Below the pieces are notes generated by a model. It ran no database searches, was not told the DNA's origin, and saw nothing but the letters and a program-made list of their open reading frames with translations. A DNA stretch of 64,000 nucleotides from Amoebophrya sp. A120. Its lineage: Eukaryota > Protista > Dinoflagellata. The first letter of the stretch is position 1. Every line of letters starts with the position of its first letter. The DNA lies in assembly GCA_905178155.1 (NCBI GenBank), contig CAJINV010000015.1, forward strand, positions 1-64,000. The letters run 5' to 3'. A program made the position numbers and the translations under genes. Shown piece after piece: positions 1-54,480 of this stretch.

Positions 1-55
1 AAAACCCTAAAACCCTAAAACCCTAAAACCCTAAAACCTAAACCCTAACCCTAAA
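1..55. repeat. Telomeric repeat, (AAAACCCT)n = TTTTAGGG, with degenerate proximal units
   Basis: Four perfect AAAACCCT units (1-32), then AAAACCT, AAACCCT, AACCCT at the start of the window; C-rich strand at the 5' end as expected for a left chromosome end. Confidence 0.92.
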
Positions 56-3000
56 TCCGAAAGCCAGACCCCAGGCAAGACACGCTCTGAGTCCGCCCCC
101 CCTGCCCGACAAGTCCCGTAGTACGGGACTTGTTCCGGAACACGACCTGAGTCCACTGACTTGCCTGGTTGGCTTCTGTGGGGTTCCTGAACCCCAAACC
201 CTGGCCCACTGATCTTCGAAAACGAGACCCGAGGCAAAACACGCTCTGACACCGCCGGCACCCCCAAACCCTGCCCGACAAGTCCCGTAGTACGGGACTT
301 GTGCCGAAACACGACCGGAGTCCATTGATTTGCCTGATTGGCTTCAATGGGGTTCCTTAACCCCAAACCCTGGCCCACTGATCTTCGAAAGAGAGACCTG
401 AGGCGAGACACGCTCTGAGTCCGCCGATATCCCCAAATCCTGCCCGACAAGTCCCGTAGTACGGGCCTTGTGCCGAAACACGACCCGTGTCCATTGATTT
501 GCTTGATTGGCTTCCGTGGGGTTCCTTAACCCCAAACCCGGGCCCAATGATCTCCGAAAGCCAGACCCCAGGCGAGACACGCTCTGAGTCCGCCGATATC
601 CCCAAACCCTGCCCGACAAATCCCGTAGTGCGGGACTTGTGCCGACACACGACCTGAGTCCATTGATTTGCTTCATTGGCTTCAATGGGGTTCCTGAACC
701 CCAAACCCTGGCCCGCTGATCTTCGAAAGCGAGACCTGAGACAAAACACGCTCTCAGTCCGCCGATAACCCCAAACCGTGCCCGACAAGTCCCGTAGTGC
801 GGGACTTGTGCCGAAACACGACCGGAGTCCATTGATTTGCTTGATTGGCTTCTGTGGGGTTCCTTAACCACAAACCCTGGGCCACTGATCTCCGAAAGCG
901 AGACTCCAGGCAAAGCACGCGCTGAGCCCGCCGATATCACCAAACCCTGCCCGACAAGTCCCGTAGTGCGGGACTTGTGCCGAAACACGAGCGGAGTCCA
1001 TTGATTTGCTTGATTGGCTTCTGTGGGGTTCCTTAACCACACACCCTGGGCCACTGATCTCCGAAAGCGAGACTCCAGGCAAAGCACGCGCTGAGCCCGC
1101 CGATATCACCAAACCCTGCCCGACAAGTCCCGTAGTGCGGGACTTGTGCCGAAACACGAGCGGAGTCCATTGATTTGCTTGATTGGCTTCTGTGGGGTTC
1201 CTTAACCACACACCCTGGGCCACTGATCTCCGAAAGCGAGACTCCAGGCAAAGCACGCGCTGAGCCCGCCGATATCACCAAACCCTGCCCGACAAGTCCC
1301 GTAGTGCGGGACTTGTGCCGAAACACGAGCGGAGTCCATTGATTTGCTTGATTGGCTTCTGTGGGGTTCCTTAACCACACACCCTGGGCCACTGATCTCC
1401 GAAAGCGAGACTCCAGGCAAAGCACGCGCTGAGCCCGCCGATATCACCAAACCCTGCCCGACAAGTCCCGTAGTGCGGGACTTGTGCCGAAACACGAGCG
1501 GAGTCCATTGATTTGCTTGATTGGCTTCTGTGGGGTTCCTTAACCACACACCCTGGGCCACTGATCTCCGAAAGCGAGACTCCAGGCAAAGCACGCGCTG
1601 AGCCCGCCGATATCACCAAACCCTGCCCGACAAGTCCCGTAGTGCGGGACTTGTGCCGAAACACGAGCGGAGTCCATTGATTTGCTTGATTGGCTTCTGT
1701 GGGGTTCCTTAACCACACACCCTGGGCCACTGATCTCCGAAAGCGAGACTCCAGGCAAAGCACGCGCTGAGCCCGCCGATATCACCAAACCCTGCCCGAC
1801 AAGTCCCGTAGTGCGGGACTTGTGCCGAAACACGAGCGGAGTCCATTGATTTGCTTGATTGGCTTCTGTGGGGTTCCTTAACCACACACCCTGGGCCACT
1901 GATCTCCGAAAGCGAGACTCCAGGCAAAGCACGCGCTGAGCCCGCCGATATCACCAAACCCTGCCCGACAAGTCCCGTAGTGCGGGACTTGTGCCGAAAC
2001 ACGAGCGGAGTCCATTGATTTGCTTGATTGGCTTCTGTGGGGTTCCTTAACCACACACCCTGGGCCACTGATCTCCGAAAGCGAGACTCCAGGCAAAGCA
2101 CGCGCTGAGCCCGCCGATATCACCAAACCCTGCCCGACAAGTCCCGTAGTGCGGGACTTGTGCCGAAACACGAGCGGAGTCCATTGATTTGCTTGATTGG
2201 CTTCTGTGGGGTTCCTTAACCACACACCCTGGGCCACTGATCTCCGAAAGCGAGACTCCAGGCAAAGCACGCGCTGAGCCCGCCGATATCACCAAACCCT
2301 GCCCGACAAGTCCCGTAGTGCGGGACTTGTGCCGAAACACGAGCGGAGTCCATTGATTTGCTTGATTGGCTTCTGTGGGGTTCCTTAACCACACACCCTG
2401 GGCCACTGATCTCCGAAAGCGAGACTCCAGGCAAAGCACGCGCTGAGCCCGCCGATATCACCAAACCCTGCCCGACAAGTCCCGTAGTGCGGGACTTGTG
2501 CCGAAACACGAGCGGAGTCCATTGATTTGCTTGATTGGCTTCTGTGGGGTTCCTTAACCACACACCCTGGGCCACTGATCTCCGAAAGCGAGACTCCAGG
2601 CAAAGCACGCGCTGAGCCCGCCGATATCACCAAACCCTGCCCGACAAGTCCCGTAGTGCGGGACTTGTGCCGAAACACGAGCGGAGTCCATTGATTTGCT
2701 TGATTGGCTTCTGTGGGGTTCCTTAACCACACACCCTGGGCCACTGATCTCCGAAAGCGAGACTCCAGGCAAAACACGCGCTGAGCCCGCCGATATCACC
2801 AAACCCTGCCCGACAAGTCCCGTAGTGCGGGACTTGTGCCGAAACACGACCGGACTCCATTGATTTGCCAGATTGGCTTCCGTGGGGTTCCTTAACCACA
2901 CACCCTGGGCCACTGATCTCCGAAAGCGAGACTCCAGGCAAAACACGCACTGAGCCCGCCGATATCACCAAACCCTGCCCGACAAGTCCCGTAGTGCGGG

Positions 3001-3825
3001 ACTTGTGCCGAAACACGACCGGACTCCATTGATTTGCCAGATTGGCTTCCGTGGGGTTCCTTAACCACACACCCTGGGCCACTGATCTCCGAAAGCGAGA
3101 CTCCAGGCAAAACACGCACTGAGCCCGCCGATATCACCAAACCCTGCCCGACAAGTCCCGTAGTGCGGGACTTGTGCCGAAACACGACCGGACTCCATTG
3201 ATTTGCCAGATTGGCTTCCGTGGGGTTCCTTAACCCGAAACCCTTGCCCACTGATCTTCGAAAGCAAGGCCTGAGGCAAAACACACTCTGAGTCCGCCGA
3301 TATCCCCAAACCCTGCCCGACAAGTCCCATAGTTCGGGACTGGTGCCAAAACACGACCCGAGTCCATTGATTTGCTTGATTGGCTTCTGTGGGGTTCGTA
3401 AACCCCAAACCCTGGCCCACTGATCCTCGAAAGCAAGGCCGGACGCGAGACACGCCCTGAGTCCGCCGATACCCCCAAACCCTGCCCGACAAGTCCCATA
3501 GTACGGGACTTATGCCGAAACACGACCGGAGTCCATTGATTTGCCTGATTGGCTTCCGTGGGGTTCCTTAACCCCAAACCCTGGCCCACTGATCTTCGAA
3601 AGCAAGACCTGAGGCAGAACACGCTCTGAGTCCGCCGATATCCCCAAACCCTGCCCGACAAGTCCCATAGTACGGGACTTGTGCCGAAACACGACCTGAG
3701 TCCATTGATTTGCTTGGTTGGCTTCTGTGGGGTTCGTTAACCCCAAACCCTGGCCCACTGATCTTCGAAAGCAAGACCCGACACAAAAGACGCCCTGAGT
3801 CCGCCGATACCCCCAAACCCTGCCC
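56..3825. repeat. Subtelomeric tandem satellite, 169-bp unit, ~22 copies
   Basis: Identical spurious ORFs recur every 169 bp (864, 1033, 1202 ... 2216). Central copies are identical and flanking copies diverged. The unit contains CCCAAACCCT motifs and an ACAAGTCCCG..CGGGACTTGT inverted repeat. Confidence 0.97.
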
Positions 3826-7356: not shown

Positions 7357-10300
7357 CTACTCGTCCGGCCACAAGAAGTTTTGTATCAACGGCAGAACCT
7401 TCAAATGACTGACGTCGGCGAAAATGACTTCGATGTCTTCCAGAGACTTTGCATTCACAATGAGTTTCTCCTTGAAAGCGAAGATTGCAGCTGCGAGTAC
7501 CGCGAAGATTTCCGTTGATTCGTACCCGAGAACGAGCTATGGAAGGAGAATTTGTCATGCGTTGTTCACTTCATCGAGTCAGTCGCTGTAGTACGAGAAG
7601 GTCGGCGAGCACCTCCCTCATTATGCTTTCAGAGGGTCTACTCTTCACAGTGCTCTTGCCGCTAGAGCAAAGATTTCCACAAGGCAACATTTCCATGACA
7701 GATGACTCCGCTCTGCATCACAGAATGATCATGTCGAAAATACACCCAAATTTTTCCTCATTTGCATACCCGATCCCACAGGTACAACACCTCGTCCGTG
7801 TGCAAAAATCCCACGAAGCCCTTCACTATCCAAGGAAGCACGATTTTCAGCGCCAGTGCGGAGGCTTGGTGGAGTTCGGCAGCCGTTGGTGCGTGCGTAA
7901 CGTTTGGGTTGTTCCGCGAATTGCTTGCGGTGCTGCTGTTGTGTGCCCCATGCTGCCCACCTTGCCCTGCAGTACAGCTCGCGCTCCCGATTTTCATCAG
8001 GTTGTGCGCCGCGAAGGGGCAGGCGAAGCAAAACAGCGTTTCGAACAGAGAAAGCAGTGGGAGCAACGTCCCGCGCTCCATGCTGATGGTGTGGAGCTTG
8101 CACAAGTGCCGACAGTAGAAGGCCTGGTACAGCGGGTACACGATATAACACAATAAACGCCCCCAAACAAAATAAAACTGGTTTCGCTATGGGCAGCAGG
8201 GCACTTCCGCATTCCAACTTTCCAAGTGCTAGAGCTATCAGGCGGTCATCTGTCGCGTGTTGACTCTTCTCCCAGGTGGTGACTGTTTGGCATATCGCGC
8301 CAGGCCACTGCACAACCCTAACTACTTAAGCTAGCGCTGCGCCCCCGTCGGCCCGACGCCGACCAAGCTAAACGGTTCTCCCTACGCCGAGGGCCGCGCG
8401 GAGGTGCGGCGGCTGATGCGGTGCCCAGCTTTTCAACTGGGCCCGCGCCGGGCTTTTGCGGTTTCTGGCGCTGGAGGAACACTCGAAAAGACGCGGGCTG
8501 CCACTTCGCAAAGATGGCTCGCGAGGCTTCGAAAAGCTGTAGCCACAGCTGCGCCGCACGCAGCTGTCTCGGGCCCGGGCCGAAAACGAGGCACGGCACG
8601 AAGACGGGCAGGCCCCCCCTTGTGCCCGCCAGGATACCAAACCCGGCTCAAACGCCCGCGCGCCGCGGAAACAAGCAGGCAACGCATGGGTGAAGCGCAA
8701 CAGGTCCGCTTCTGCACGGTCTCCCCCGCGAGTTGCCTACCAGGCCCCCGTGGGCAAGAAAGAAAGTGCGCGTCCTCGCCGTCGCCACCTAGTCAAAAAG
8801 TGCGCGTCCTCGGCGAAGCCGCTACTTCCTACCCGCCTTTTCCTCCGCCTTCCCCACCAACTCCTACACACAAGGAGAAGCGATTGCCTTTACTTGACAC
8901 TGCGCCCGCCTGCGCTGCACGCCTCTACACTGATCCCTTCACCCCCGCAGAGCAGGATGCGACTTCGGCCCCAATGGCCCTAAGCACTCAGGCGACTTAC
9001 AGCCGCCGCCCCTCCTGCGCAGCACAGCTTGAGCCAGTGGCCCGGAGCAATTTTGGTGTGCCAGACTCTCCTGGCTTTCTGTTGCGCAATGCTAGCGCGC
9101 AACGAGCAGCGACGCGATCCGGGGAAGAGGCGCAACGCGCATTCTGGTGGTGCGCGAGACAGAAGGGGGTCGCTTACTCAAGGCCCAATCGCCCAAGACG
9201 GTCGTCTGGAAGGATTTTCACCGCTGCCACCTGGCCGGCGCCACGCCACTCATGCTCATCCGCATGGAGCGACACGCACGGCATAAAACGTCTAAGCTTT
9301 GCTGGCCATAGGTTATTTCGTTCAGGGCCGACAGTAGAAGGCCTGGTACAGCGGGTACACGTCCTCCATCTTCATCGACAGGTAGCAGAACGGCGCCGCG
9401 TACGCGGAAAACCCCTGGAACGGCACGATACCGGAGGGGGGGATTTTTTGCAGCTTGCTCTGTTCCTGTTCCACTTTGGATTTCTCGCGGTAGTTGGAAG
9501 AAGTTGATGTGTGGTGAAAACTGCCCGTGGACGAGGAGGAGGCTGCGTAACTGCTCGCCGAATTGCTGAAGCTTTCCGGCTTGTAGCAAGGCAACAGATG
9601 CGTCGTCGGTGCCAGGAACGGAATTTGGGGCGTCACCACACAGTCGTCGAACACAGACGGGTCGCGGGTTAGGACTTTCACCAAATTTTCCATCAGCTCG
9701 TCAAAGGGAAAAAAATGCGGGTCGGATCCGCCGTTCTCACTGACGTCCAGCTTCAGCACGTCGTCGACCACCCACTCCGTGTGCTTCAGCAAGGATCGCG
9801 CGATGTTTTTCACCCAGTTTTTCTTCCGCGTGAACTCTTCCGGAATCGGCAACAGGGCGTTCTTCCAAAGCTTGTAGCGCAGGCCCGCGGGACAACCAGT
9901 GCGGGAGAATTTGAGGAAGTCAACAGCGTAGTTGCTCGTCGCTGGTTGTGAACTTGTGCCGGACGAAGGCTTCGAGCGGGTATTAGGACGAAGGGGTTTG
10001 AGCCAAGGCAAGAGATTTATTTGAGTGGTCTTCACAGAACCGACCCAGTAACAGGATCCATGGGATGCATCTACTTCTACACGTCACTGTTACTTTGGCT
10101 TCTAGACAGCACTACACGATTCCAATTCTGACTCAAAACCCTTTTTTTTCTTCGATAGCTTGAGGACGAGGATTTTTTGCTTGGGGAGGACAGCCCGCCC
10201 TGATTTGCGCTGCTTTCCGTCGGATGAAGCAGCTCCTGAGCCTCCGCGTACTTCTGCGATATGGCGTTCTCGATGTACTCATTTTCCTGCTGCAGTTTTG

Positions 10301-11761
10301 AGAGACCGCTTCCGCCGCCCCCGGCACAGGCCGCGATCTCGTCATCCAAATCGCTAAACAATGGATTACGGTACTGAGGTTTGATTTGATTTTTTTTTTT
10401 GAGATAAAGCCATCACTTCTTGCAACCAGTGCATGACACATTCCTGTAGTTTCCAACAGAAAGAATTATCGTGCGACACAACAAGCAAACATTCAAGAAC
10501 TTTACCGGGAAATCGTCTGCCCCAAGATTTATCAGCGGATTTATCCTACTCGCGGCCATGGAGCTGCTCAAATTGCCTGCTTCATCAGCACAATTCGTTC
10601 CGGGCATTAGTTCCGCGAAGTTTTTCCTCAAATCCGAGAACGACGGTACGTACAGCTGCGCCGGCAGGTGCAGCCAGTGCAGATCGGTATGCGGCGGCCC
10701 GCGGTTCGTCAGCATGTGAAACAAGTCTTTGAGCTCCGCGACGTACCGCGTCTTGACGCAGACTTCTTGGTCGTCCGTCGAGGAAAACAGGTTCGCAACC
10801 GTCTGCGCCTTCAGGGTTGGCGGCAGGTCGTCGGTTTTGGACATCTGCGAAATCGCGTTCACGTTCTCCATCACAGAACTCGGGGTCTGCTGATCAGACG
10901 TTCGATCGGATAAATTGCTGTTGTTCAGGAACGACGAATTGTTTCCGGGCTTCACATCGGCGCTGCTGGTGCTCGCAATGGTCAAATCGCGGAAGAACGG
11001 CTGCTTTTGCTCCTGCGCAAGCGCCTTCAGCTCCCGCAGTAGGGTTTCGCTCCACTGCTGGTACAGAATTTCGATCACGTTCAGGCTGCAGGGATGCAGT
11101 ATGGAATTATTCCCGATCGATATCAGAGAAAATAAAGGCCCAACGCAAGAATTCGAGTCGCGAAAATAGTTATACTTGTATGTAGAACTAGAAGGCTTAC
11201 AACCTCGTTATTTTTGCACGATTATTGACAAATGCTTCCCGTAGAGGGAAATCGCCCGGTACTTACTATTCGCAACTTTCCTACATAGAAAAAGACCACA
11301 CAGACGCTCCAACTACTGCGAAGGGTAGTTCTTTCTCACCCCATACTTGGTGGGATCGGATATTCCGGGCAAAAGATGTTCCGGTACACGTGGCGGTCCT
11401 TGTTGAGCCGCATCATTTTGGTGTACGTGAAATTCCGCACCTTGTTTCGAATCAGCGGCAGTGCGGGTGCGACCAGTGCCTGCGAGTCCATTTTCTTTAT
11501 CTCTGCCATGGTGACATCGCCGGAGGAATTGTCTTCGGGTTTCTGCTTCGGATTCGCTGCCTCCGCCCCCGAACTGCTTGCTGAAAACCAATTTCCACGA
11601 AAAGGCTCGTGCCTGTACACCTGCGCCAGCAGCTTCTCCTGGGCGTGCTTCTTCGCCAGCCAGAAAGTCTCGTCCCGCTGCAGGTCACTGCAAATCGAGC
11701 TGACATCCTGCTCTTTCAGGACCTTCTGGTGGAAGATGGAAAGTCCGTTACTCAGCGCCAT
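7357..11761 (-). CDS. TBC1D19: TBC1 domain family member 19-like Rab-GAP, at least 6 exons
   Basis: Reconstructed peptides GCPAGLRYKLW, DPHFFPFDE, PPSGIVPFQGFSAYAAPFCYL, YCRHLCKLHTIS, GFVGFLHTDEVLYLWDRVLGYESTEIFAVLAAAIFAF and LKVLPLIQNFLW follow the TBC1D19 pattern. Stop TAG at 7357-7359; canonical GT-AG intron 10374-10505. Confidence 0.88.
7538..7768. mobile_element. Introner with decayed TSD
   Basis: TATGG...TGCATA; removing element plus 5 nt gives the conserved WDR-V-LGY in frame. Confidence 0.75.
8108..9361. mobile_element. 1184-bp GC-rich insertion (8143-9326) flanked by a perfect 35-bp direct repeat of exon sequence
   Basis: GCCGACAGTAGAAGGCCTGGTACAGCGGGTACACG at 8108-8142 and 9327-9361; both copies encode VYPLYQAFYCR. 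Confidence 0.85.
9981..10157. mobile_element. Introner (degenerate, B-like ends)
   Basis: TATTAGGACGAAGGGGTTTGAG...CTCAAAACCCTTTTTTTTCTTCGATA; flanks GCGGG/GCTTG; frame restored. Confidence 0.7.
11100..11345. mobile_element. Probable old introner
   Basis: TATGG...CCATA ends; removing element plus 5 nt joins the 11336-11761 and 10413-11078 frames. Confidence 0.5.
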
Positions 11762-17200: not shown

Positions 17201-20200
17201 GGTCCATCGGGGCTTGATTAAACATTCCGGTCGTGTCTGGAGAGCCGAAAAGTCGTTTTTCACGAATTACGAATTTGGATAACAAAGAGAACGTAGGACT
17301 GGGCTCACAGAGAACCAATCCTCATCTTCCGATCTAAATCTATCGATGCACGAAACTAGCGCATGACAAATTTCAAACGACAAACCTTTACCAAAATGAG
17401 TTGAAGAGTTATTACCTTGTCCCGCCATACTGTTCCCCGCGACAGCAGCACGTTGCTGATGACCACCAGCTTGCGGGAAATTATTGCTCAAGCCCGCAAT
17501 TTCCACGTTCCTCTCTTCCGGATATGCATTGCAAATATGTCTGGGTCTGTAAGGTTGGAACTTGTGATGCTAACTTTGGACTCCTAAAAAAATCTGTATT
17601 GCATGGCCAGCAAGACGAGACGCCCAGTTTGTGCTACGCAGGGAGGGCATTTGTCATGCGGGATAGGCATCAGGAAGGCCTCTAAAAATATGTGATGCTA
17701 GATCACGCATTACAGACAATCCTGGGTCATGCAAAATATGCATGACAAACCTTGTAACCTTCCAGACCCAGACATTTTTGCATTTGATACCGGACTCGCA
17801 GTGACGAATTCCTTCTCCAGTTGCTGGTTTAGTAGCAGGTTTTTCTCCATGTTCTCCAGGTCCGGACTGGCCAGCGACACCGTTTCCTCGTTGATCGAGG
17901 TGCGCCGATAATTCATCTCCACATCCTGCTCTGCGCAAGAGATCTGGTCCGACAACCGCTTCTTCTTGAAACCGCCCGGCGGCGGGGGCGGCGGCGGACG
18001 GTTCGGTGGGGCGTGCGGCGCCGGGTAGTCGAACTCCAACAGCGTCTTGGCATGTTCCTTGTCGATATGGTACGAAAAAAGTGTTCGAGTTTTTACACAC
18101 TTGTTGTAACTTTAGCAACACAAAGTGGCTTGGTATCATGACGGAGAAAACCTGTAATGCAGAGATCATAAGGAAAAACACGCATACTAAACCGAGTTTT
18201 CTGAGGTGGATACTTACTTATCCGGCATGACAGAACTTGTCTCTCTTACTTCTTGTCTCGTAACACAATGTGTGATTGTAGCACTTTTTTCTTTTGGTAG
18301 TCGAAGGCAGCAAAGTACTGGTCCGCGTTCGGCATCTATCCAACAAAAAAACAACTTTAGGTGTAACTTTGTGATGCGCAACATGCGGGACATGCATGGC
18401 AGGGCCCATTCAAGTGCATTTTCACGTACTATCTGTGCGTGACAGGTTTTTGTTGCCATGCCAGACAGATTTGTAATGCTGTTTCTGCAAAAAAGTTACA
18501 CCTACAACGTTCTTTTGTTGAATAGCATCTGCATCGAGGGATCTCCACCCACTTATCCCAAAGAAAAAAGCTAGCGCATGATACTCATTTGCAATGCAAA
18601 AATCAAGACACAGGAAAATCTGTATTGCGTATCTTAAACGGCGTGCTATGCGCGATCCCCTTGAGAAATCTTTCTGTGAATAATTGATTCTATGCATTAC
18701 AAATGTGGCACCCGAGCTTTTTTCTCTTCGATACCGCTCCCAGATTGAACAACTGCTCCGAGGTATCGCAAGAAAAAACCATCTGTCTCAAACCTTTGCA
18801 GACTCAGCATGAAACGGAAAACCTGCGATGCGTCAGACACCAGGGAAAACACATAGGAAAGACGACCTTCTTGCATGTTCAGCATGACAAAAAATCTTCT
18901 CAAGGAAGTTGTGCATCACAATTTTAGACTGAGACAGTTTTTTCTCACGATACGACGACGTCAAATTCGCGGTGTCGAACACGCTTTGTTGATGCTCGCC
19001 CAGCAGTACCTGCAATGGCTCCATGTTCGATTCCGCGATCTTGATCGCCTCGTCGGCAGTTTGGGCTTTCTTCAGCAAATCCTTGCACTTCTGCAAAATT
19101 TCCTTCCCGGCCGGGGTCGTGTCCTTGGTGTGTTCCAGCTGTTTCGCCATGGACTGGATTTCGTCCGCGATCATCTTCATCGAGGAGTCATGCTGCGGAG
19201 CGGAGCCGCCGGTTGTCGGGGCGGGCAGTGCTTCTGGTATGAGGAGGGAAAATGGAAACGATCAAGGGGACTAGGTCGACAAAGCAAAAACGTTTATCAG
19301 AAATGCTAATCCTGATGCTGGCCTCATCAAAACACCAAAGGCGCGTTTAAATGGATTTGGAAGGAGCATCATGGTTGAGCATGACAAACAACCGCTTTGC
19401 CCGTTCCCTAGCCGAATGAACGCAAATCTTCACGAATGCGACTCCATATTCTGACTTCCGTCAGCACGGGAGGAAGGTTTCTGCGGATTCGCAGTCTGCG
19501 CGCCCGCGTTCGTCGGAACAGTCGGCATAGTGCCCATCGGTACCTGGTTCACGGGCACGCCCATCTGCGCGGGGTGAAACCCAAACGGCATACCGGGCAT
19601 CGCCATCGGCATCTGCATCGCGGCAAAGTCCGCACCGAACCCCATCGCGGAGGGACCGTAGGCCAGGTTGCCTCCTCCGGCCATCATCGGGAAGTTCCCG
19701 ATCTGCAGCAGCTCGGAAGCGCCGATTGGCTGGAAAAAACCGGTGGGTCCGTAAAATGGGTCCATAAACGCGGCCGGAGCGGCACCGGGTTGCTGAAACG
19801 GAGCTGATAAGGATTTTGATATTAGCGAATAGCGATGTAATTGTGGTATCAGAGATAATTGTCTGGTAGAATTACTGGTAAATGCAATAAGGTGCTAAGT
19901 ACAAGGAATTCGGGAGCAAAAAAACGACGTCAATCCATACTGCAGAATACCTCCCGTACCCGGATTCATGACGCCTGCGCCTGCCTGCGTCACCACGCCT
20001 TCCGGCTGCTGCAGAAACCCTTGCATCTGCGCCGCAAAAAACGCCGGACTGGGGGTCTGCACCGCGAACGGGGTGGTCATGTCGCCCTCCTGGAGCGCCG
20101 CAAAAGTGGTACTCCCGGTGATGCCGAATGGGTTGTATCGAAAGGAAAAACGTCCCCACCCCCTAGTCAAGTTGGGAATCTAGCAACACAAGTCTCCAAG

Positions 20201-21356
20201 TTTTGGGAGCTGTGCACGACAAATTTCCCTCTGCAGTGTAATGCTGGTTGGCAAGTGACGCCGCATGAGAAAGCCATTTTCTCATGCTCTTTACAGCATT
20301 ACAAATTCCAAAACACGACTGGAAATGCCTCTCATCATGGAGCTGCGCATTACAAATGTTCCTGTCATTGCGCATTTGCATGACAACTCTGGGGTGGGGA
20401 CGTTTTTACATAGGATAGGTTGGGCAACGTGATCATCTGGTTGTTCGGATTGTTATTTCCGTGGTCCCCCTCTCCTTTCTCGTGCTTCCCACCCACCTGC
20501 TGTTCGTCATGGATCAGCAGCTTCTGCGAGTAGTCAGCGTCGTCGTCAAACAGTTTCTCCTCTGTCATGCGCTTGGCGGTCTTCGCATCGGTGATCGGCA
20601 GGGCCGAGTGCTTGTTCACTTTCTGATGCTGGTTCTTGCTATTCTGCGACGCAGCTCCATTTGCCGTGGAGGGTTTGTTATTCATCATTCCGTTGGAGGT
20701 CGTGTTAGAGCTGTTCCCGTGCGCCAGAAACCCCTTGCGGTTGCCGTGGTTCCGTTCGCCAGCCGTGCCCGCAGTCGACGCGTGCCGATGTTGGCCATTC
20801 TTCCCCGATGTCTTTCCGTTTTTCAGCGTCGCCGCTTGGTGATCACCGTTTGCAGTCGTTTTCGAGGAGCCGTTCTTGTGGTTTTGGTTGTTATTCATCT
20901 TCTGCGCTGTTGTGCCGTTCGTGTTCAACGCCGGGCTCCGCTCGGCACCGCCCTTCCCACCGGCAACACTACCCTTCTTGCCACCAGCGACGGTGGTTGG
21001 GTGCAGGTTCGAAGTACCAGTTGCCGATTTGTTCCAGTTTGCTTTCTTTTTCTGCTCGTTTTCCGTGGACAGAAGCAGCAAGTGCCATCCAGACGGATCC
21101 GTTTCGCCGGCGGAACTTATCGTAGGAAAAAAGCGTTTTACTGTAAGGATTTTGCAATTTTTGTATTACGCACAAATTTGTTCATCTCTTTCATGACAAG
21201 GAAAACTTGTCATGCATGCTTAATAGGGGACAACACATTTAAAAGCCAAATGCTTTGCATGCGTAGCAAGACGAATGCGTCTGCGTTCCATTCTATGCAT
21301 CACAAGCTTACAGTAAAACAGCTTTTTCTTGCGATAGAAGTTTGCATTTGTTTCAT
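14280..21356 (-). CDS. Large multi-exon protein: low-complexity N/Q/G/P-rich N-terminal part and C-terminal PPR-like helical repeats; both ends uncertain
   Basis: Exons join in frame across 9 introners and several GT-AG introns (15798-15953, 19804-19950). PPR-like segments LFTLIIRSFEKCHE, ATAAMIKAHGVAQDVGQCVEYL and VVYQAALDASI. Two junctions near 17.0-17.4 kb were not resolved. Confidence 0.65.
14908..15169. mobile_element. Introner family A (262 bp)
   Basis: TIR TATCAAATGCAAATATATCTGGGTCTGGAAG; flanks AGAGT/AGAAT; frame restored (KHDS-NKRF). Confidence 0.9.
17523..17789. mobile_element. Introner family A, reverse orientation
   Basis: ~30-bp TIR; perfect TSD CCGGA; frame restored (TASP-EERNV). 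Confidence 0.92.
18066..18299. mobile_element. Introner family B-like
   Basis: TATGGTACGAAAAAAGTG...CACTTTTTTCTTTTGGTA; perfect TSD GTCGA. Confidence 0.88.
18337..18524. mobile_element. Introner family C
   Basis: TATCCAACAAAA..TAGGTGTAACTTT / AAAGTTACACCTA..TTTTGTTGAATA; perfect TSD GCATC. Confidence 0.9.
18554..18733. mobile_element. Introner (B-like ends)
   Basis: TATCCCAAAGAAAAAAGCT...AGCTTTTTTCTCTTCGATA; flanks CCACT/CCGCT. Confidence 0.85.
18764..18952. mobile_element. Introner family B-like
   Basis: TATCGCAAGAAAAAAC...GTTTTTTCTCACGATA; flanks CGAGG/CGACG. Confidence 0.87.
19238..19448. mobile_element. Degenerate introner
   Basis: TATGAG...CCATA; removing element plus 5 nt restores the frame (GSQ-K-ALPAP). 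Confidence 0.6.
20136..20417. mobile_element. Introner family E
   Basis: TIR core AAAAACGTCCCCACCCC; perfect TSD GGTTG; homologous to 33804-34082. Confidence 0.92.
21118..21336. mobile_element. Introner family B
   Basis: TIR TATCGTAGGAAAAAAGCGTTTTACTGTAAG; flanks GAACT/GAAGT; frame restored. Confidence 0.9.
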
Positions 21357-34379: not shown

Positions 34380-36330
34380 GTTCGACGCTTCCATGAAACG
34401 CAAGAAAATCATGATCACGCTATCGATAGAAGCTGTAAGTGGTGATAGACATGACACGACGCATGGGAGATCAAGAACGGACCTTGATTCCAGCTGCAGT
34501 GTCGGGTCAATCGCTTCTGCTGTTTCTGCCGTCGCCGAGCCGCAACCTTTGCCGAGGTGCATGCCGTACCCCTCGCAAGACCTTGCTCCCCTGAACCTTG
34601 AATTTTCGGGTTCAATCTAGTTGCAGCAAAGCCAGCCGGTAGATAGGAACGAAGGACGCTCGTTCCTATAGGGACGCTCGACTTCTTTGTTCATTTGTCT
34701 TTCTACTCTCGGGAGCGGACATTAGCCTTCACATCAAGAGTGGCACATTTATATGACGCCTTCATGCGATTATTAACTCCTAGCAACGATATGTCGGACT
34801 CCTGCGAATTGTTCAGAACAACACCTCAGAGTCGCAAGGCCGAATTCATTGGTGGGCCTCATGCCTCGCTTCGCGAAAAAGCAACAAATAAATGTACTAC
34901 TTCTCGTTAACCTTAACGTTATGATCGATGAAAATTTTTCCAGATTTGATGCGCAGACGCATGACGGTCACGAACTATTTGGCTGAAGTTTTTGCAACTG
35001 GAGTTTTCTTCTTTGTACTTGACGCTCCATTATTCGATGTCTGTTTCGCTTTTCTCGACGGTGGAGGTTTTACGGTGGTTTTAGCCTCCCTGCCTTTTGC
35101 ATTTTTACTCGTACTCGTGGTCTGCTGCTTGTTCAGAGTCTGTTCTTTGGCCGCGCGATTTGCTGCTTTACCTTTTTCTTTTTGTGCGGATGCGTTTTCG
35201 TCACTTGATTTTTGCCGAGCTATGCTGCTTTTGTCCAGCTTAGAATTCGCGGAGGTGGACGCTGCAGAAAACCCAAGCGCTTGCGTCACCTCGACTTGAA
35301 TGTCCGCTGGAAGAGAGGAAAATCCAGCGAGAATGGCATTGAGGTTGGCCGGCTCTTTCAGTTTGTTGTCCGCGACGTATTGTCGTAGAACCGGCGATAG
35401 CGCGCTGGCGCCCTGCATGCTCAGGAAAAATCGCGAACCATTTCCACCACACTCGGGCTTTTTCGGAATACCTGAGTGATGGTTGTCGTTGTTGAATAAT
35501 GTGGTCCAGCTGCAAGAATGCTATCTGCCGCGAACATTAGGCACGTGGCACCTGCAGCTTTTCGTTCATCACGCGCCTTACTTCGAATTCTCCGCTTTTG
35601 GCACATCATGCATATCGAAGATTCGCCGCATTTAAGACATGCCAACCCCAACAGCAACACGCGTGAAAAAGTGAGTACTGTATATGACAAAGCGAGGCTG
35701 TCCTTTCTGCAGTTTCTCCTTCGTTCGCTTGCAGGCTCCTGCGTTGCCTCGGTCTGCAATTTCAATCGACACGTCCTTCTCCACAAAGCAGTTGAGGTGT
35801 TTGGAAATCACGCAAGTTCTCCCCAACATAAAGGCTTCCATAGTCACCTTCCGGTCGCCAGTTTTTAGAGGTTCCAAGCAGTTTTGCTTTCCGAGGTGCA
35901 TGCCGTACCCCTCGCAAGACCTTGCTCCCCTGAACCTGATTTGATGTTGGGGCTTAGAAAGATAGAACTCCTATCAAAAGCAAGAAAATCACACGAGAAA
36001 CCGGAGTTGTAGTGATGGACATGACCCTTGTCGGAAATCAAAAACGGACCTTGATCGGTGCAGCGCCGAATCATTGTTCGCCCTGCATCTTCCTGGTGCT
36101 GCCAAGCAGTAATCTTCGCCGACATGCATACCGGACTTCTCGCAAGAGGTTGCCCCCCTGAACCTGATTTGATGTTGGTACTTAGAAAAATTTCCTATGT
36201 TGAAATGCATCAAATCACACCAGATACCACAGTGGTAGTGATAGACATGAACACCCTTTTCGAAAATCAAAAACGGACCTTGATGATTGCAGCGCCGAAT
36301 CCAGGTTCGCCCTTGATGTTACAACGCGTG
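34380..36330 (-). pseudogene. Frameshifted, internally duplicated Cys/His zinc-finger-like gene relic
   Basis: Three related blocks translate as GPFLI..HVYH.., with one reading HYHCGIWC..RGATSCEKSG..C. Frames break between blocks; a 47-bp near-identical segment occurs at ~34552 and ~35891. Confidence 0.45.
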
Positions 36331-37987: not shown

Positions 37988-40900
37988 CTACTCCCCCATG
38001 TCCACATCGGGGTCGGCACCCGGTTGTTTCTCCCGCTTTTCATCTCTCCGGACCCCACCAGTCCGCGCCGCCTCGTCGCCTTCCCCACTGTCCTATGCAT
38101 TGCAAATATGTCTGGGTCTGGAACGTAGAGCTTTGTCATGCACGTTTTGCATGGGCCATGACATCTGTGATGTATGTTTAGCATCACAAATTTTCTTAAG
38201 GCATCTTTATGCCCATTCCGCATGACAAATGCCCCGTCCGCGTAAGTAGCAAAAAGTGGATTCCTTTTGCTGCTGATGCAACACAGATTTTTCTAGAATC
38301 CAAATGCAGCATGACAAGTTGCACTTTTCAAGACCTAGACGTATTTGCAGTGCATACGTCCTCGCTATCCGTACTCGATGAAAAAACCGCGCACTCTTCC
38401 ATGTTCCGCTGCTCGAGTCTCTGGAAGGTTTTGTAGTACTTCAACAGGTTCATGTATCGTGAGAAAAAACTGTTTCACTGTCAAAAACTTGTGATGCAGA
38501 AAGTGTATTGCAGAAGTGTCTGTGTTGCTACACATGCAAGACATTGGAATTCCAGACGTGTTTTTCCTGAGGAACCTCGCATGGCAAATTTTCTTCATCA
38601 TGTAGACACCAAACTTGTGATGCAAGACTTGCAAAGTGCTTACAGTGAGACACGTTTTTCGTACGATATCATGGATTTCAGCTTTGTAGGTGTGTTTCCC
38701 TGCTCTTCCGGCGCTCCTCCTTGTCCTTCACCCTGCGGCTGGAGCAAATTTTTTGTCACGTGTGACTTGTGTTCCTGCAACTTCAGCGAGTCGATGAAAA
38801 GTGAGTGGAAACCGCTGGGCATCCGGACGGGAATTTTGATGCGGGTGATCGGGTATCAAGTGTAAAAATGTCTGGGACTGGAAGATTGGAACTTGTGATG
38901 CTAACTTTGGACTCTAGAGAAATCTGTATTGCACGACCAGCAAGAGGAGTCTAGTTTGTGCTACGCAGGGAGTTCGTTTGTCATGCGGAGTAGGCATCAG
39001 GAAGCCAGCTCAAAATCTGTGATGCGCGGTCGTGCATTACAGACATCCTGGGTCACGCAAAACATGCATGACAAATCTCAGAATCTTCCAGACCCAGACA
39101 CTTTTACATTTGATATCGGGTCTTTGTAGGAATCGGGGTTTTTCGCAATGAACTCCCCCGACACGTTATCGTACGAAAAAAGTGTTTCACTGTAATGATC
39201 TTGCAAGTTTTGCATCACAGGTTTGTAGTTCTACATCACAGGGAAAATTTGCCATGCGAGACTCCTATGGGAAAACACAGCTAAAAATCCATTGTCTTGC
39301 ATGTGTAGCAAGAGAAACACTTTTCAGATGCATTTTCTGCATTACAAGTTTACAGTGAAACGGTTTTTTCTTTGCATACACGTCCCAAATCATGAACTCG
39401 TTCTCCTTTCCCTATCCACAGTAAATTTCCTGTACACGTACAAATGCTGTCTCTGCATGACAAAATTTGCCTTCAATCCTAGTCTAGCATGACAAGTTGT
39501 ACACTGCAACTTAGCAAAATTTGTCATGCATTTTGTACATGTACGGGAAATTTACATTGCATATTCCGTCCAACGAGTGCACGAATCCCATAACGTAGCC
39601 GTCGTCCTCTGCCTGAAAATCCGCTGGTGAAGAACCCTGAGGACCTGCAGCAACTGCACCTTTACCATCCCGAAACTTCGGCTCGAAGTACATCTCCCCG
39701 CACCGCTGGTTTGGCCAGTCCGGCAGTTTGTAAAACGCGACCGCGGTTTGTTCTTCCAGGTCGTATTTCACGAAACCTTCAAAATCAAACCCCGCGGCCG
39801 GTTTCTTCGCGCGTCGCGCCTTCGTGGCGGGCGAGTTGACCTGCTTCTCCGTCGCACCGGTGGCCCGGTCAGCCGCGGGAAAGGTGGTCGCGCCGTAGAA
39901 GTACCGGTTTTTCTTTCCGGTGAATCTTTCGTTGATGCGTGGGAACTCCACCCCCATCAAACCCGGGCGGATAATCTCGCCCAACGCGGCGGTTTGCTCT
40001 TCTTTGGTTGTCGCGGGGAAGGGAAAAGATCTCGCAAGGCCCGTTTCGCTGAAGTACAGTGGTAAAATCTCCATGCTGACGTTTTCCTCACCTTCTGCTT
40101 TGTCCAGATGAAATACGAATTTCGTCAACTGCGGCACAAACGGGGTCGGCTTGCCATTCGGCGGCTTGTCATCTTCTTGTGTAGTGGTCTTTGATGCGCC
40201 AGCACCGGCTCCTCCCTGCTCCTTGTCCTTCCCTTTCTTGCTCCCACCGAGCTCCAGGCCGAGGTCCAGATTGAAATTCTGGTGAAACGCGCACCCGTAG
40301 GCGACGATGACGGCTTTTCCGTCCGCATCCAGCTCTTCCCACGCGTTCACAAAGTGGAACACCTGGTGCGCGCCGGGGATCTTGAACCAGCGAATGTTCT
40401 CATTGTTCTTCCCTGCCGAGTCCGCGGATTTCGGTAAAACGCCGTAATACGCGTTGCAACCGTTGTCGAACTGGTAGGGCGACTTGCCCTCGGCACACTT
40501 CTGGCCGTCGAAGAACAGCGGGAGGTAGGGGAAAACGACAAAATTCTTCGTGATCAGCGAGTCGTGCATCATCACCGGCTTATTCACAACCGCTTCGTCC
40601 TCGCCGACGTCATATGCAGCGAAAAAACAAGTGTCGCACTCGTATTAATCGCAATCATGCATGACAAATCTTGTTTTCTTCCTGAATCAGCATGACAAAC
40701 TTGAGTTTTCTTCATGCAAAAATTTATCATGCGACTTATACCAGTACGATCATTTTGTAATGCATACATCCACGGTCTTGACAATTTTCCCGGTCTCGCC
40801 ACTGATCACGGAGTAGGACAGGTACGGTGGCGCGGTGATGTGGTAGGCGAAAACGTACATGTCATTGGTGTCCGGATCAATCTTCGGATGCGCGTGCATC

Positions 40901-43900
40901 GCGTGGTTGAGCTGGGAGGGCGGGTTCTGAATTTCCTCGTTCACTGAGGATTCAACACCTGCTGCATCACCACTCTTTCCTGCACTGTCACTGCTCGTCT
41001 TCACCATTTTCCTCCCCGTCGCAAAGTCGTGGAACCCGATGGAAAACAACTCTTTGGGCCGGACAGTGGTTGTCGTTTCGTTCGCATCAACCACCGGCCT
41101 CTGGAATTTCTCGTCCCGAGTCCTCTCCGGAAACGGGGCATCCACCGCGAGCGGAAACTCCGGAATCTCGTTGTCGGGAAGGAAAGTACGGTCGCCGAAT
41201 TGTCGCCCGGAGAGGCTTCTAATCTTCGTCTTTTCATCCAATAAGTCCTCACCGGTGTAAGAAGCGGCAACTGTCTTCGAGTCGGCTGAAAACTCTCTGC
41301 TCTTGGTCTCATTTTCTACCCCAAAATCACCCCTTTCCTCTTCCACCGGAGCGAGGAATCTAGTGCTTGATTTGGATTTGGAACTTGTCCGCGGAGTGTT
41401 GGGCGGTTCCGAAGAAGTCGCGGTCTTTTCTGCTTTTCCCTTGCTCGTCAGGGTTGTGTTGAAGATTTTCTGGTCGAAATCAGAGTTATCGTCCGCTTCA
41501 TTTCCACCACCCGCGTTGGTTTCTTGCTCTACTCTGGTATGAAATGTAAAAATGTCTGGGTCTGAAAGATTCTGAGATTTGTCATGCATGTTTTGCATTG
41601 GCCATGATGTCTGGGATGCACGCCCTAGCATCACAGATTTTTTGAGGGTTTCGCGATGCCTATTCTGCATGACAAATGCCCTCTCCGCGTACCAAAAATT
41701 GCATTCCCTTTGCTGCTCATGCAATACAGATTTTTTTGGAATCCAAATTCAGCATCACAAGTTGCATTCTTCCAGACCCAGACATTTTTACATTTGATAT
41801 CCGGTCTGCAACAGCAATTTCCGCAAATCCGCAATTTCCTGGTCGATCATGGTGTCGGCATGTTAGTCCCGTGGAAAATCGTCACCAAGACCCTATGGTG
41901 CCGCCGCATCACTGCCCCTTTTTCTCATTCTGATTGGAGCATGACAAAATGTATACGATGAGCACTTCTGCAGAGTGCTGCTCATGGGTGGACTGCGCAT
42001 GACAGCTCGCTCGGGGCATGCAATTTGGCATGACAAAGACAAGCACAGGGTGTGGACGTTTTCAAATAGGATAATCTTCGTCCTCCTCCTCGAAGATCTC
42101 GAATTCCACATCTGATTCGTATCCTGAAGAAGAGCAGTGGCATAGAGCATATTTTTGTCATGCAAGACCACTATCGCAGAAATGCATACTGCAGGGAAAT
42201 CCCATGACAACATTCGGCTTCGAAAGCTGCAAATAGAAACCGATATTCGTTTTACGTAAAAGCGATTTTGCATGACAAATAGCATGAATATGTTCCCGAT
42301 TGTGCTCTTCCACGATAACTCTTCCAGCCGGTCCAAAAACTCTTGGTCCACCGGAAGCCCCGCTGCTTCTGCTTGGTCGAGCAGGGAAGCCGTCGTGGCG
42401 ATCGAGGTTAAGGAGGAAGGATTGCGTTTCAGCGGTTCCAGTGTGTCCAGTGGCTGGTCCTGAGTTAGGATGGACTGCTGGGGGGTTTCTCTCTCCAAAG
42501 AACCATCGTCCGCCGATAGTTCATTTTTCCGGTCCTCCCGCTTTTCAGACTCGCTGTAAGCCACTTCGAAGGGCAAGTTCGTTTCGTACAGCGCGAAAAT
42601 TTTCCCCTTGTGGTACGCCATGGCGGTGTTCGCCGTGCCGGCACGCAGCGGGTCGGACTCCAAGACGCCAAGTAGGGATTTCAAGAGCATTTCGTGGAGC
42701 AACAGTCGCGCAACGCCGTATCAAAAGGAGAAATCTTCCCTCCCCATATCGAAAACGAAATTTGTGATGCTGTATCTGAGTACACAAATCCATTTGTAAT
42801 GCTAGAACGCAAAGAGCCGTAGTCGTGGCCTCGTCTGCAGGCAATTTGTCATGCTGTTTTGCACTTCCACCTGCCTCCTGTCATGCTGAAGCTGCAAGGC
42901 TTTGTTCCCACACAAACCAGCACTACAGTCCGCATCTTTTACCTTCTAGCATGACAAATCTGATTTGTGACCACAAATCTGCATTACAGATTTCCGTTCT
43001 GATATATAGAGGGGGGATTTTTTTTCTTGATACGCCAATCCCGCCCCGCATCTCCCCCAGGCGGAGATACAGCAGTTCCCCGTTGGTCAAAACCTCCGTT
43101 TTCAGCTTCGGCGTTTCCAAAAGGCGGTTCCCGTATAACACCACCTCGCCGTTGTCAATTTCCAAATAGTGCACCATTCCATCCCCGTCGAATAAGTGAT
43201 GCATCCGTGCGTCCGTGGAGCAAACGGCATTCGGCCCCACGCGGCAGTACAGCCCCTTCAGGTCCTTCGGAATGGTGCCCGTGATCTCGAATTGTCCGGT
43301 CCGCCCCATCACGGTGACCTCCTCGTCGACGGGCGCGAACCGCCCCTCCAAAAACGGGTTCGACCGCATGGGCCCGGCCTCTTTCAGCTGCTGCGATTTC
43401 AATTCGTTCTCCAGGGCCAAAAACGCGCGGCACAGGCTCCGGCTCAGGTTGTCGGAACCCAACAGGGTGGTCTCACTGTCTATCAAATGCAAACGTGTCT
43501 GGGTCTGGAAGGAAGCATGGTTGTCATGACAAACTTTGTCATGCCTGTCTGGCATGACTCTCAAATCTGTCATGCAGGTTACCCAAGAGCATCATTTTTC
43601 TGTCACGCAGAAACGCAGTGTATCATGCAATATAGGCAACACCTAGAAGCTCAGAAACTTGTCATGCTGAGCCAGCACTTGTGGCCTCCGCATGATACGC
43701 CACCCAGCATCACAGATTTCCAGACCCAGACACATTTGCATTTGATACTGTCGTCGTCACTGCAGTTGACCCCCGCTTCGGTTTTGATCTCGTCCAGCAA
43801 AGCCTTGGCGAGCAGGTCTTCCTCGCTGAGCTCCGGATTAGTCTTGCGCAGCGCCAGGATGAAGTTCTCCTTCTGCGATATCGGTCCCATCGTGGCATCT

Positions 43901-52079: not shown

Positions 52080-54480
52080 TTTTGCGTCGCTTACAAACGG
52101 CCGTTTGTAAAACACAAGCGGCTGACTTGTAAGACGTAGCCCCAATGGGACTCTGCAAATCGAGACAAGTGCAAGAGTTGAAGCTCAAGCGATGATCACC
52201 CTCCCAGAGAAAGCTATTCTCGATGCTGCTGCGCACTTCAGGGGGGCGTTTGTAAAAATACAAACGGGCACCGGCGGCGCAAGAAGGCGCAAGAAACACA
52301 GCGGGATTCCAGGAAATATCAAAACACTTGCAGTTCACGCGAGAAATTTCCAAAATCGCAAAAGATACACAATGCCGGTGGTGGAGTGCTCTTTGCGTCG
52401 TTAACAAACGGCCGTTTGTAAAACACAAGCGGCCAACTTGTACGACGTAGCCCCCACGGGACTGCGCAAACCGAGATAAATGCAAGAGCTAAGGTTCAAG
52501 CAATGACCATTCTTCCGAAGAAAGCTATCCCGCATGCTCCTGCGTGCTTTAGGGGGGCGTTTGTAAAAATACAAACGGTCACCGGCGACAAAAGAAGGCG
52601 CACCAAACACGTCGAGAATCCAGGAAATCTTAAAAAAATCGCAGTTCATGCAAGAAATTCCCCAAATCGGGAAAAAAAGTGAATCTCGATGGCAGAGTGC
52701 TCTTTGCGTCGTTTACAAACGGCCGTTTGTAAAACACAAGCGGCCAGCTTGTACGACGTAGCCCCCACGGGACTGCGCAAATCGAGAGAAATGCAAGAGC
52801 TAAGGTTCAAGCAATGATCATTCTTCCGAAGAAAGCTGTCCCGCATGCTACTGCGTGCTTTAGGGGGGCGTTTGTAAAAATACAAACGGGGACCGGCGGC
52901 AAAAGAAGGTGCACCAAACACGGCGAGAATCCAGGAAATCTTAAAAAAATCGCAGTTCAGGCAAGAAATTCCCCAAATCGGGAAAAAAAGTAAATCTCGA
53001 TGGCAAAGTGCTCTTTGCGTCGTTTACAAACGGGCGTTTGTAAAACACAAACGGCCAATTTGTACGACGTAGCCCGCACGGGACTCTGCAAATCGAGAGA
53101 AATGCAAGAGCTAAGGTTCAAGCAATGATCATTCTTACGAAGAAAGCTATCCCGCATGCTACTGCGTGCTTTAGGGGGGCGTTTGTAAAAATACAAACGG
53201 GCACCGGCGGTAAAAGAAGGTGCACCAAACACGTCGAGAATCCAGGAAATCTTAAAAAAATCGCAGCTCATGCAAGAAATTCCCCAAATCGGGAAAAAAA
53301 GTCAATATCGATGGCAGAGCGCTCTTTGCGTCGTTTACAAACGGCCGTTTGTAAAACACAAGCGGCCAACTTGCACGACGTCGCCCCCACGGGACTCTGC
53401 AAATCGAGAGAAATGCAAGAGCTAAGGTTCAAGCAATGATCATTCTTCCGAAGAAAGCTCTCCCGCATGCTACTGCGTGCTTCGGGGGGGCGTTCGTAAA
53501 AATACAAACGGGCACCGGCGGCAAAAGAAGTTGCACCAAACACGGCGAGAATCCAGGAAATCCTAAAAAAAATCGCAGTTCATGCAAGAGATTCCCGAAA
53601 TCGGGAAAAAAAGTAAATCTCGATGGCAGAGTGCTCTTTGCGTCGTTTACAAACGGCCGTTTGTAAAACACAAACGGCCAACTTGTACGACGTAGCCCCC
53701 ACGGGACTCTGCAAATCGAGAGAAATGCAAGAGCTAAGATTCAAGGAATGGTCATTCTTCCGGAGAAAGCTATCCCGCATGCTCCTGCGCGATTTAGGGG
53801 GGCGTTTGTAAGAATACAAACGGGTACCGGTGGCAAAAGAGGGCGCACCAAACACGACGATAATCCAGGAAATCTCAAAAAATTCGCAGTGTGCGCGAAA
53901 AATTGCCCAAATCGCAGTAAAAAGACAATCCCGATGGCAGAGCGCGTTTTTCCTCGTTTACAAACGGCCGTTTGTAAAAAGCAAACGGCTAACTTGTAGG
54001 ACGTAGCCCGTACGGGACTCTGCAAATCGAGAGAAGCGCAAGAGTTAAGCTTCAAGCAATGATCATTCTTCCGGAGAAAGCTATCCCGCATGCTCCTGCG
54101 CGATTTAGAGGGGCGTTTGTAAAAATACAAACGGGCACCGGTGGCAAAAGAAGGCGCACCAGACACGACGAGGATCCAGGAAATCTCAAAAAATTCGCAG
54201 TGTACGCGAAAAATTGCCCAAATCGCAGTAAAAACACAATCCCGATGGCAGAGCGCGTTTTTCCTCGTTTACAAACGGCCGTTTGTAAAAAACAAACGGC
54301 CAACTTGTAGGACGTAGCCCCCACGGGACTCTGCAAATCGAGAGAAGCGCAAGAGTTAAGCTTCAAGCAATGATCGTTCTTCCGAAGAAAGCTTTCCCGC
54401 AAGCTGCTGCGCGCTTTAGGGGGGCGTTTGTAAAAATACAAACGGGCACCGGCGACAAAAGAAGGCGCACCAAACACGAC
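52080..54480. repeat. Internal tandem satellite, 311-312-bp unit, ~8 copies
   Basis: TTTACAAACGGCCGTTTGTAAA recurs at about 52091, 52401, 52712, 53023, 53334, 53646, 53957 and 54268. Confidence 0.95.

What the first reader, a model, noticed from the sequence alone, without database searches (positions are those of the whole stretch)
8108..9361. 1.18-kb GC-rich insertion with a perfect 35-bp exon duplication in the TBC domain: a second route to intron gain
Seen: a 35-bp exact direct repeat (VYPLYQAFYCR codons) flanks a TIR-less insert with no recognisable protein; removing 1219 nt restores the conserved domain. The repeat is far longer than the 5-bp introner TSD and still perfect, so the event is recent. 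Two excision readings exist on the coding strand: GC-AG at CCAG|GC inside the repeat, or the introner geometry GACGT|GTACCC...GTTATA-TCGT|G. Inference: a non-autonomous retroelement, a recombinase-type integration or staggered-break repair, tolerated through the permissive splicing system.
Basis: partly seen in the sequence, partly recalled or inferred. Interest (0 to 1): 0.78.

Follow-up and report, generated by a model that had tools for sequence, protein, structure and literature searches.

The report
New intron with long target duplication
In the marine parasite Amoebophrya, a 1.2-kb piece of a repeated element sits inside a gene between two 35-base copies of its landing site, far longer than the organism's usual intron-making transposons leave; a close relative lacks it, the cell likely splices it out as a new intron, and DNA-break repair probably put it there.

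Summary
Confirmed. An exact 35-bp repeat (8108-8142, 9327-9361) flanks a 1,184-bp insert in an exon of a TBC-family gene of Amoebophrya sp. A120. A relative about 3% divergent (L001) has the empty site: one copy of the 35 bp and a gap of exactly 1,219 nt. DNA contigs hold both junctions and show about 3-4 near-identical copies of the insert elsewhere, plus diverged relatives. RNA contigs fit an mRNA lacking exactly 1,219 nt, and the public gene model equals my spliced protein. So it is a recent, probably spliced intron. It is a derivative of a longer repeat with inverted ends, and lacks both tips (about 21 and 22-24 nt) and an internal part. It joins the host through a 6-nt microhomology, so a transposase probably did not place it. 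Best reading: capture or templated copying during repair of a staggered break (about 50%); rival: retrocopy of the element's RNA (about 30%). A second, unrelated 1.3-kb insert with a 47-bp duplication lies in the same window. Repair-type intron gain is known; this length and recurrence I did not find in print.

The parts
8108..8142 (-). 3' copy (in gene sense) of the 35-bp duplicated exon segment; its first 6 nt on the coding strand (8137-8142) are also shared with other copies of the element (microhomology)
   Evidence: loose ends at 8137
9327..9361 (-). 5' copy (in gene sense) of the 35-bp duplicated exon segment
   Evidence: single copy in L001
8143..9326 (.). 1184-bp insert: tip-less, internally deleted derivative of a multi-copy repeat with decayed inverted ends
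8143..8765 (.). left arm, shared with about 3-4 near-identical copies and diverged relatives that carry frameshifting indels
8763..8812 (.). copy-specific internal junction: longer copies diverge after 8765 and before 8769; 8763-8778 equals 8797-8812, read as a templated patch (inference)
8769..9326 (.). right arm; other copies run on at least 22 nt beyond 9327
8124..9342 (-). candidate intron, GC-AG reading with both sites taken from the duplication (1219 nt)
   Evidence: register not testable from mRNA
8140..9358 (-). alternative candidate intron, GT donor and a 3' cut 4 nt after ATA, the geometry of two RNA-supported introners of this gene (1219 nt)
7357..11761 (-). host gene, 801-aa TBC (Rab-GAP) family protein, identical to the A120 model P0151; four other introns shown by RNA contigs (joints 7531/7768, 9974/10157, 10373/10506; loose end 11117 matching 11348)
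34552..35937 (.). second case of the same footprint: exact 47-bp repeat (34552-34598, 35891-35937) around an unrelated 1292-bp insert

Best explanation
This is a recent 1.2-kb insertion into an exon, flanked by a 35-bp duplication of the target, that is likely spliced out as a new intron and was probably placed by host repair of a staggered DNA break rather than by a transposase. Steps: (1, shown) the site was a plain exon, as in L001; (2, inferred) two nicks 35 bp apart opened it; (3, inferred) the host end annealed through 6 nt to a position about 21 nt inside the tip of a repeat with inverted ends, either an excised molecule or a chromosomal copy; (4, inferred) that DNA was captured or copied, with the middle lost through short-homology jumps either then or earlier, and was rejoined 22-24 nt short of the other tip; (5, shown) fill-in left 35 bp on both sides; (6, likely) because any cut at the same position in both copies restores the exon exactly, the permissive spliceosome finds a usable donor and acceptor inside the duplication and the 801-aa protein is unchanged.
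For: Empty site with a gap of exactly 1219 nt in L001, 232 mismatches in 7353 aligned nt, no trace of the insert. Youth: 2 differences listed against the other copies over the arms, against 6-22 mismatches per intron between the two strains. Multi-copy: contig depth 2.6-4.3 times the flanks in two DNA runs, and loose ends into other flanks. Missing tips: other copies extend left of 8137 and right of 9327, and the two extensions match each other as inverted sequence, the left one beginning with the TAT-7nt-AAA motif described for A120 introners; TIR transposases need their tips (established knowledge). No poly(A) or repeat tail. Splicing: all 5 RNA contigs laid from X3 are listed; the upstream exon contig (depth 19.4) ends in a 30-nt overlap with the downstream contig (29.4) that holds the whole repeat, none runs from the repeat into the insert's 5' end, and 8442-8769 is uncovered. 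P0151 is identical to my spliced protein; 139 of 145 homologues that span the site have no gap near it. Every 35-nt window of this CDS holds a GT or GC and 18% hold AG|GT or AG|GC, against 49% and 1% for 5 nt. A second, unrelated insert has the same footprint, which points to a process indifferent to cargo.
Against: The junction marks (3' microhomology, shortened other end, template jumps, long duplication) fit target-primed reverse transcription equally well. Both ends stop close to the parent's tips, which suggests a discrete template and not random capture. The parent's tips are read from loose ends of at most 30 letters, from one contig each. Another copy starts at 8141 with at least 255 nt of unique flank, so it has no perfect duplication of 31 bp or more; duplications of the other copies are otherwise unseen. 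The mRNA junction is inferred from overlapping contigs of one run, not from spanning reads; contigs drop rare forms; the gene model may rest on the same RNA. About a fifth of downstream RNA depth enters through the insert's last 300 nt (depth 6.1), so processing is not clean or the insert starts transcripts.
Confidence: 0.5

Rival explanations
1. Retrocopy made in trans: a non-LTR reverse transcriptase nicked the exon, primed on 6 nt of the element's RNA (a transcript or an excised intron), jumped over the middle, stopped short of the 5' end, and a second nick 35 bp away made the duplication.
For: Variable long duplications are typical of non-LTR insertions (8-35 nt screened for tailless retrocopies, PMC5322556; 126 bp and a median of 900 bp in PMC9977147). 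Internal priming by complementarity without a tail is described. A120 has non-LTR elements. Another copy's right arm is in the RNA run. Two copies stop within 4 nt of each other at the left end (8137, 8141).
Against: No tail on either insert in the window. The parent looks like a DNA element with inverted ends. The internal junction carries 3 extra, apparently templated letters and is not a clean splice. No reverse transcriptase can be tied to it.
Confidence: 0.3
2. A dedicated mobile element whose own enzyme (transposase with a wide stagger, tyrosine recombinase or HUH nuclease, encoded in the missing middle) makes long duplications.
For: Longer copies hold at least 255 nt on each side of the deleted middle; inverted ends; Replitron-1 makes variable duplications and some truncated ends (PMC10288648); the + frame is unusually open.
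Against: Both tips are missing here; one other copy has no long duplication; the second insert in the window is unrelated in sequence; no terminal direct repeats; no protein homologue for the open frame and diverged copies break it.
Confidence: 0.12
3. Not a real intron: the joined RNA form comes from reverse-transcriptase switching between the two repeats, or from cells in which recombination between the repeats has deleted the insert.
For: 35-bp perfect repeats around a GC-rich structured insert are the setting of false introns (PMC8240250, seen as search listing and start of abstract). Contigs cannot show an empty allele because the repeat exceeds the 31-letter word.
Against: The locus-specific inner part of the insert has no RNA cover, which a retained insert would give. 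The DNA junction contig is not shallower than the flanks (43.1 against 18.5 and 27.8). The RNA run holds this locus's junction, so its cells carry the insert, and its exons show 0 differences from the window.
Confidence: 0.1

Closest known systems
Amoebophrya introner elements (Farhat et al. 2021, PMC7789003; sections 10 and 11 read, other passages, supplement searched as text)
   Same: Repeated non-coding element in an exon, removed at the RNA level by a permissive spliceosome; the parent appears to begin with the A120 TAT-7nt-AAA motif.
   Different: Described direct repeats are 3-5 nt and inverted repeats sit at the intron ends; here 35 nt and both tips lost. That study used introns of 40-1000 nt only, so a 1219-nt intron was outside its set.
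A120 introner families in Gozashti et al. 2025 (PMC12130899; passages and 56 of 58 A120 rows of supplement file 8)
   Same: Families called TIR DNA, non-LTR or unknown, some about 1.2 kb long.
   Different: Duplications listed in the rows seen are 2-6 nt, one of 11, one manual 8-9, many not given. No sequences were visible, so membership in fam103 or fam135 could not be tested; the gene's id was not found in the 14 supplements.
Intron gain during repair of staggered double-strand breaks (Daphnia; PMC4202315 passages; review PMC3443670 passages)
   Same: New, polymorphic intron with a direct repeat of exon sequence at its far end; splice sites can come from the duplicated segment.
   Different: Repeats there are 4-12 bp and the source of the insert is mostly unknown; here 35 bp, and the source is a traceable repeat family.
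Tailless retropseudogenes and long-duplication LINE insertions (PMC5322556, PMC9977147; passages)
   Same: Long duplication, priming by short complementarity, shortened ends.
   Different: Cargo is a piece of an inverted-end repeat, no known LINE target motif or tail, and it became an intron.

Membership tests
Amoebophrya introner element (IE) | 8-20-nt inverted repeats at the two intron ends | tested here: not met
   Only a decayed inner match in this copy; ends do not pair in the folded pre-mRNA apart from 9 pairs in exon or repeat sequence. Other copies appear to have them.
Amoebophrya introner element (IE) | 3-5-nt direct repeat | tested here: not met
   35 nt; 3-7 nt in 14 of 14 other elements measured.
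Amoebophrya introner element (IE) | repeated in the genome | tested here: met
   Depth 2.6-4.3 times flank and other flanks seen; no second copy inside the window.
Amoebophrya introner element (IE) | removed from the mRNA | tested here: met
   Inferred from contig overlap and cover in one RNA run and the public model; no spanning read seen.
Repair-derived neo-intron (staggered break) | exon end repeated at the far end of the intron, empty allele in relatives | tested here: met
Repair-derived neo-intron (staggered break) | made by host repair, not by an element enzyme | not testable with these tools
   Inferred from lost tips, microhomology and unrelated cargo.
Non-LTR retrocopy (in trans) | variable long target duplication and shortened 5' end | tested here: met
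   35 nt; at least 22 nt missing at the right end.
Non-LTR retrocopy (in trans) | poly(A) or simple-repeat 3' tail | tested here: not met
   None at either end; tailless forms exist.
Non-LTR retrocopy (in trans) | marks of an RNA template (spliced junction, ends at RNA ends) | tested here: inconclusive
   Internal junction is not a clean splice; RNA ends cannot be read from contigs.
Tyrosine-recombinase or HUH element (Crypton, Replitron) | short direct repeat at both element termini, intact ends | tested here: not met
   Ends shortened relative to other copies; features as.
Tyrosine-recombinase or HUH element (Crypton, Replitron) | enzyme gene in the autonomous parent | not testable with these tools
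   The missing middle is seen only as 30-letter loose ends; no genome held.

The most novel reading that the evidence does not exclude
Amoebophrya has a general long-duplication route that turns kilobase pieces of almost any DNA or RNA into ready-made introns, and this case is an excised introner RNA copied back into a new gene: the copy stops one base before a branch-point-like TAAC in the parent's tail, as a trimmed lariat would. That would be RNA-mediated intron transposition caught between two close strains, running beside the DNA introners at roughly two events per 60 kb.
Probability: 0.12. Interest if true: 0.85.

Novelty: new variant of a known kind. Interest (0 to 1): 0.52.

Why it matters
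Most recent intron gains have no traceable origin. Here the empty site, the source family, the junction scars and the RNA outcome are all visible for one event younger than a 3% strain split, and the same gene shows the ordinary route in the other strain (a 328-nt introner with a 5-bp duplication). A long duplication offers 36 equivalent cut positions, so with a spliceosome that tolerates odd acceptors almost any such insertion is survivable. If the footprint is as common as two cases in this window suggest, it is a measurable second source of introns that TIR- and short-TSD-based introner screens would miss, and it can be tested directly with the public A120 assembly.

Tried and rejected
No genome was held, so other copies could not be read whole. 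Raw RNA runs X9-X11 laid 0 reads each: no test. No RNA holder is on record as RNA; X3 is taken as RNA because it joins exons. Rfam on 8000-9500: 4 matches, all far below gathering score. Insert frames: no Pfam family (frame 8335-9504 only), no homologue at 181-578 aa or for the left arm at 252-2000 aa; other frames not searched. A 21-nt end pattern found 0 matches in metagenome and viral contigs. The upstream exon found nothing among longer proteins by word search or in the PDB, and Pfam missed the separate exons (in one search the downstream piece was in the wrong frame). Atlas searches gave no answer. The L001 record could not be searched for the second insert's site. Solo LTR rejected: no TG..CA ends, wrong duplication length. 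Loss in the relative instead of gain in A120 rejected: the insert is far closer to its other copies than the strains are to each other. The 4 synonymous differences inside the 35 bp between strains are not special: another cluster of 4 in 35 nt exists in the CDS. One diverged copy's contig breaks 28 nt outside the element, which would fit a long duplication, but an A-rich run there explains it as well, so it is not counted. The three fixed-offset identity figures were misaligned and are not used. Literature: no report of long duplications at Amoebophrya introns in searches (open-access library only; the journal version of Roy et al. 2023 and figure content were not seen; its preprint 10.1101/2020.10.14.339549 was read in parts 1-2 of 4 and lists 3-8-nt duplications; bioRxiv supplements are closed).

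Full report
Observation. The 35-bp repeat is exact, at 8108-8142 and 9327-9361, 1219 nt apart; shuffled sequence gave at most 18 nt in 50 trials. The 1184-bp insert is 61.7% GC and has no second copy in the window. It interrupts a minus-strand frame that is restored by removing 1219 nt.

Host gene and organism. RNA contigs of run X3 give three joints and one loose end that define four other introns. With the 1219 nt removed, the exons give an 801-aa protein identical to P0151, which the source names as an Amoebophrya sp. A120 protein. So the window is A120-type and the public model already treats the insert as an intron. A profile from 110 homologues scores the spliced form 361 bits and the retained form 204, and aligns straight across the site; 145 of 177 homologues span the site and 6 of these have a gap near it. 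Homologues carry PF00566; A120's own score is below cut-off. The label TBC1D19-like is my recall and was not tested.

Empty site. A metagenome scan found 1 locus among 97 candidate stretches. L001 is unspliced genomic DNA, 3.2% different from the window, with the same four other introns, one copy of the 35 bp and a gap of exactly 1219 nt; it holds no piece of the insert. It carries its own extra 328-nt TAT..ATA introner with a 5-bp duplication at window 10793. The gene thus shows two reciprocal intron differences, one ordinary and one not.

What the insert is. In two DNA runs of one sample, contigs on the insert are 2.6-4.3 times as deep as the flanks (depth is a rough guide only), with 2 differences listed; at lower stringency single-copy relatives with many substitutions and frameshifting indels appear. 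Loose ends show how other copies differ. Two begin matching at 8137, inside the repeat, so host and element share 6 nt there; one begins at 8141 after at least 255 nt of unique flank. Others run at least 22 nt past 9327. Others leave after 8765 and return before 8769 with at least 255 nt each, and the contig across that junction has single-copy depth. The left and right extensions match each other as inverted sequence (a 9-mer and a 12-mer), and the left one starts with TAT-7nt-AAA, the A120 introner motif, right after what resembles the end of the introner at window 20146-20418. Inside the window an 11-of-12 inverted match survives. I infer a longer parent with decayed inverted ends, of which this copy lacks both tips and the middle. 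The inner junction repeats 8797-8812 exactly, as a polymerase that slips on short homologies would leave it. The 330-codon open frame is odd but has no homologue and is broken in the diverged copies; I treat it as unexplained, probably chance or a remnant.

Is it spliced? All 5 contigs laid from X3 are listed. The upstream exons (depth 19.4) end at 9332, overlapping by 30 nt the downstream contig (29.4), which begins with the full repeat. The only other way into that contig is the insert's last 300 nt (6.1). No contig leads from the repeat into the insert's other end, and the locus-specific middle is uncovered; the two remaining insert contigs belong to other copies. The simplest reading is an mRNA lacking exactly 1219 nt. 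This is inference from a graph in one run, without spanning reads. All 36 cut positions give the same mRNA, so the splice sites cannot be read from it. The GC-AG reading takes both sites from the duplication; the GT reading cuts 4 nt after an ATA, as two RNA-supported introners of this gene do in their GT registers. I cannot choose between them.

Mechanism. Ordinary introner transposition is unlikely: tips are lost and 14 of 14 other elements measured have 3-7-nt flanking repeats (boundaries set roughly), as in the literature. All three junctions can be read as one strand primed at the host's 6-nt microhomology, jumping once or twice, and rejoining 35 bp upstream. Repair of a staggered break with capture or copying of element DNA explains this without a tail and explains unrelated cargo; target-primed reverse transcription in trans explains it nearly as well. 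I put them at about 50% and 30%, a dedicated enzyme at about 12%. Separately, I rate the insertion as real and recent at about 95% and as spliced at about 88%.

Not a one-off. An earlier, unchecked note of this scan (e1-10627074) reports 37-57-bp repeats around 0.7-1.8-kb inserts elsewhere in this genome. It sent me back to a 47-bp exact repeat at 34552/35891 that I had set aside. Removing 1339 nt there gives a continuous 228-bp-period array (305 nt at 75% across the join), so it too is probably an insertion with a long duplication; its 1292-bp cargo is unrelated to the first. These two are the only perfect repeats of 25 nt or more among 22 hits spaced 0.3-8 kb apart outside the tandem arrays; most other hits are introner-to-introner matches; 10 shuffled controls gave none of 25 nt. 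No empty site or RNA was checked for the second case.

Comparison and verdict. Intron gain through repair of staggered breaks, through transposons and through duplication of a proto-splice site are listed mechanisms; Daphnia repeats are 4-12 bp; long duplications are known from LINEs. The A120 introner rows seen list at most 11 nt. What is new is the combination: a 35-bp duplication, cargo from a clipped introner-like family, an empty site in a close strain, and signs of recurrence. New variant of a known kind; interest 0.52.

Noticed in passing
window 34552-35937: Second insert (1292 bp, 48% GC) between exact 47-bp repeats, inside a 228-bp degenerate tandem array; carries a 147-codon minus-strand ORF with a lysine-rich tail and no Pfam match.
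   Followed up: partly
L001, site matching window 10793: A 328-nt TAT..ATA introner with a 5-bp duplication present only in the relative; related to window elements at 42719-43032 and about 60300-60615.
   Followed up: partly
window 8113-8442: RNA contig (depth 6.1) runs from inside the insert into the downstream exon with no matching upstream junction: an internal transcript start or a splicing intermediate.
   Followed up: no
window 8335-9324 (+): 330-codon open frame across the insert's deletion junction, rarer than 1 in 500 shuffles, without homologues.
   Followed up: partly
window 8532-8544: Loose ends on both sides of a 13-nt overlap: another copy of the family is broken or interrupted here.
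   Followed up: no
window 1-3800: Chromosome end: 8-nt AAAACCCT repeats grading into shorter variants, then a 169-bp subtelomeric tandem array; the published A120 telomere motifs are 7 nt.
   Followed up: no
window 52091-54450: 311-bp tandem array with a 22-bp palindrome in each unit.
   Followed up: no
window 39511-43591 (-): RPE65/carotenoid-oxygenase family gene split by several introners.
   Followed up: no
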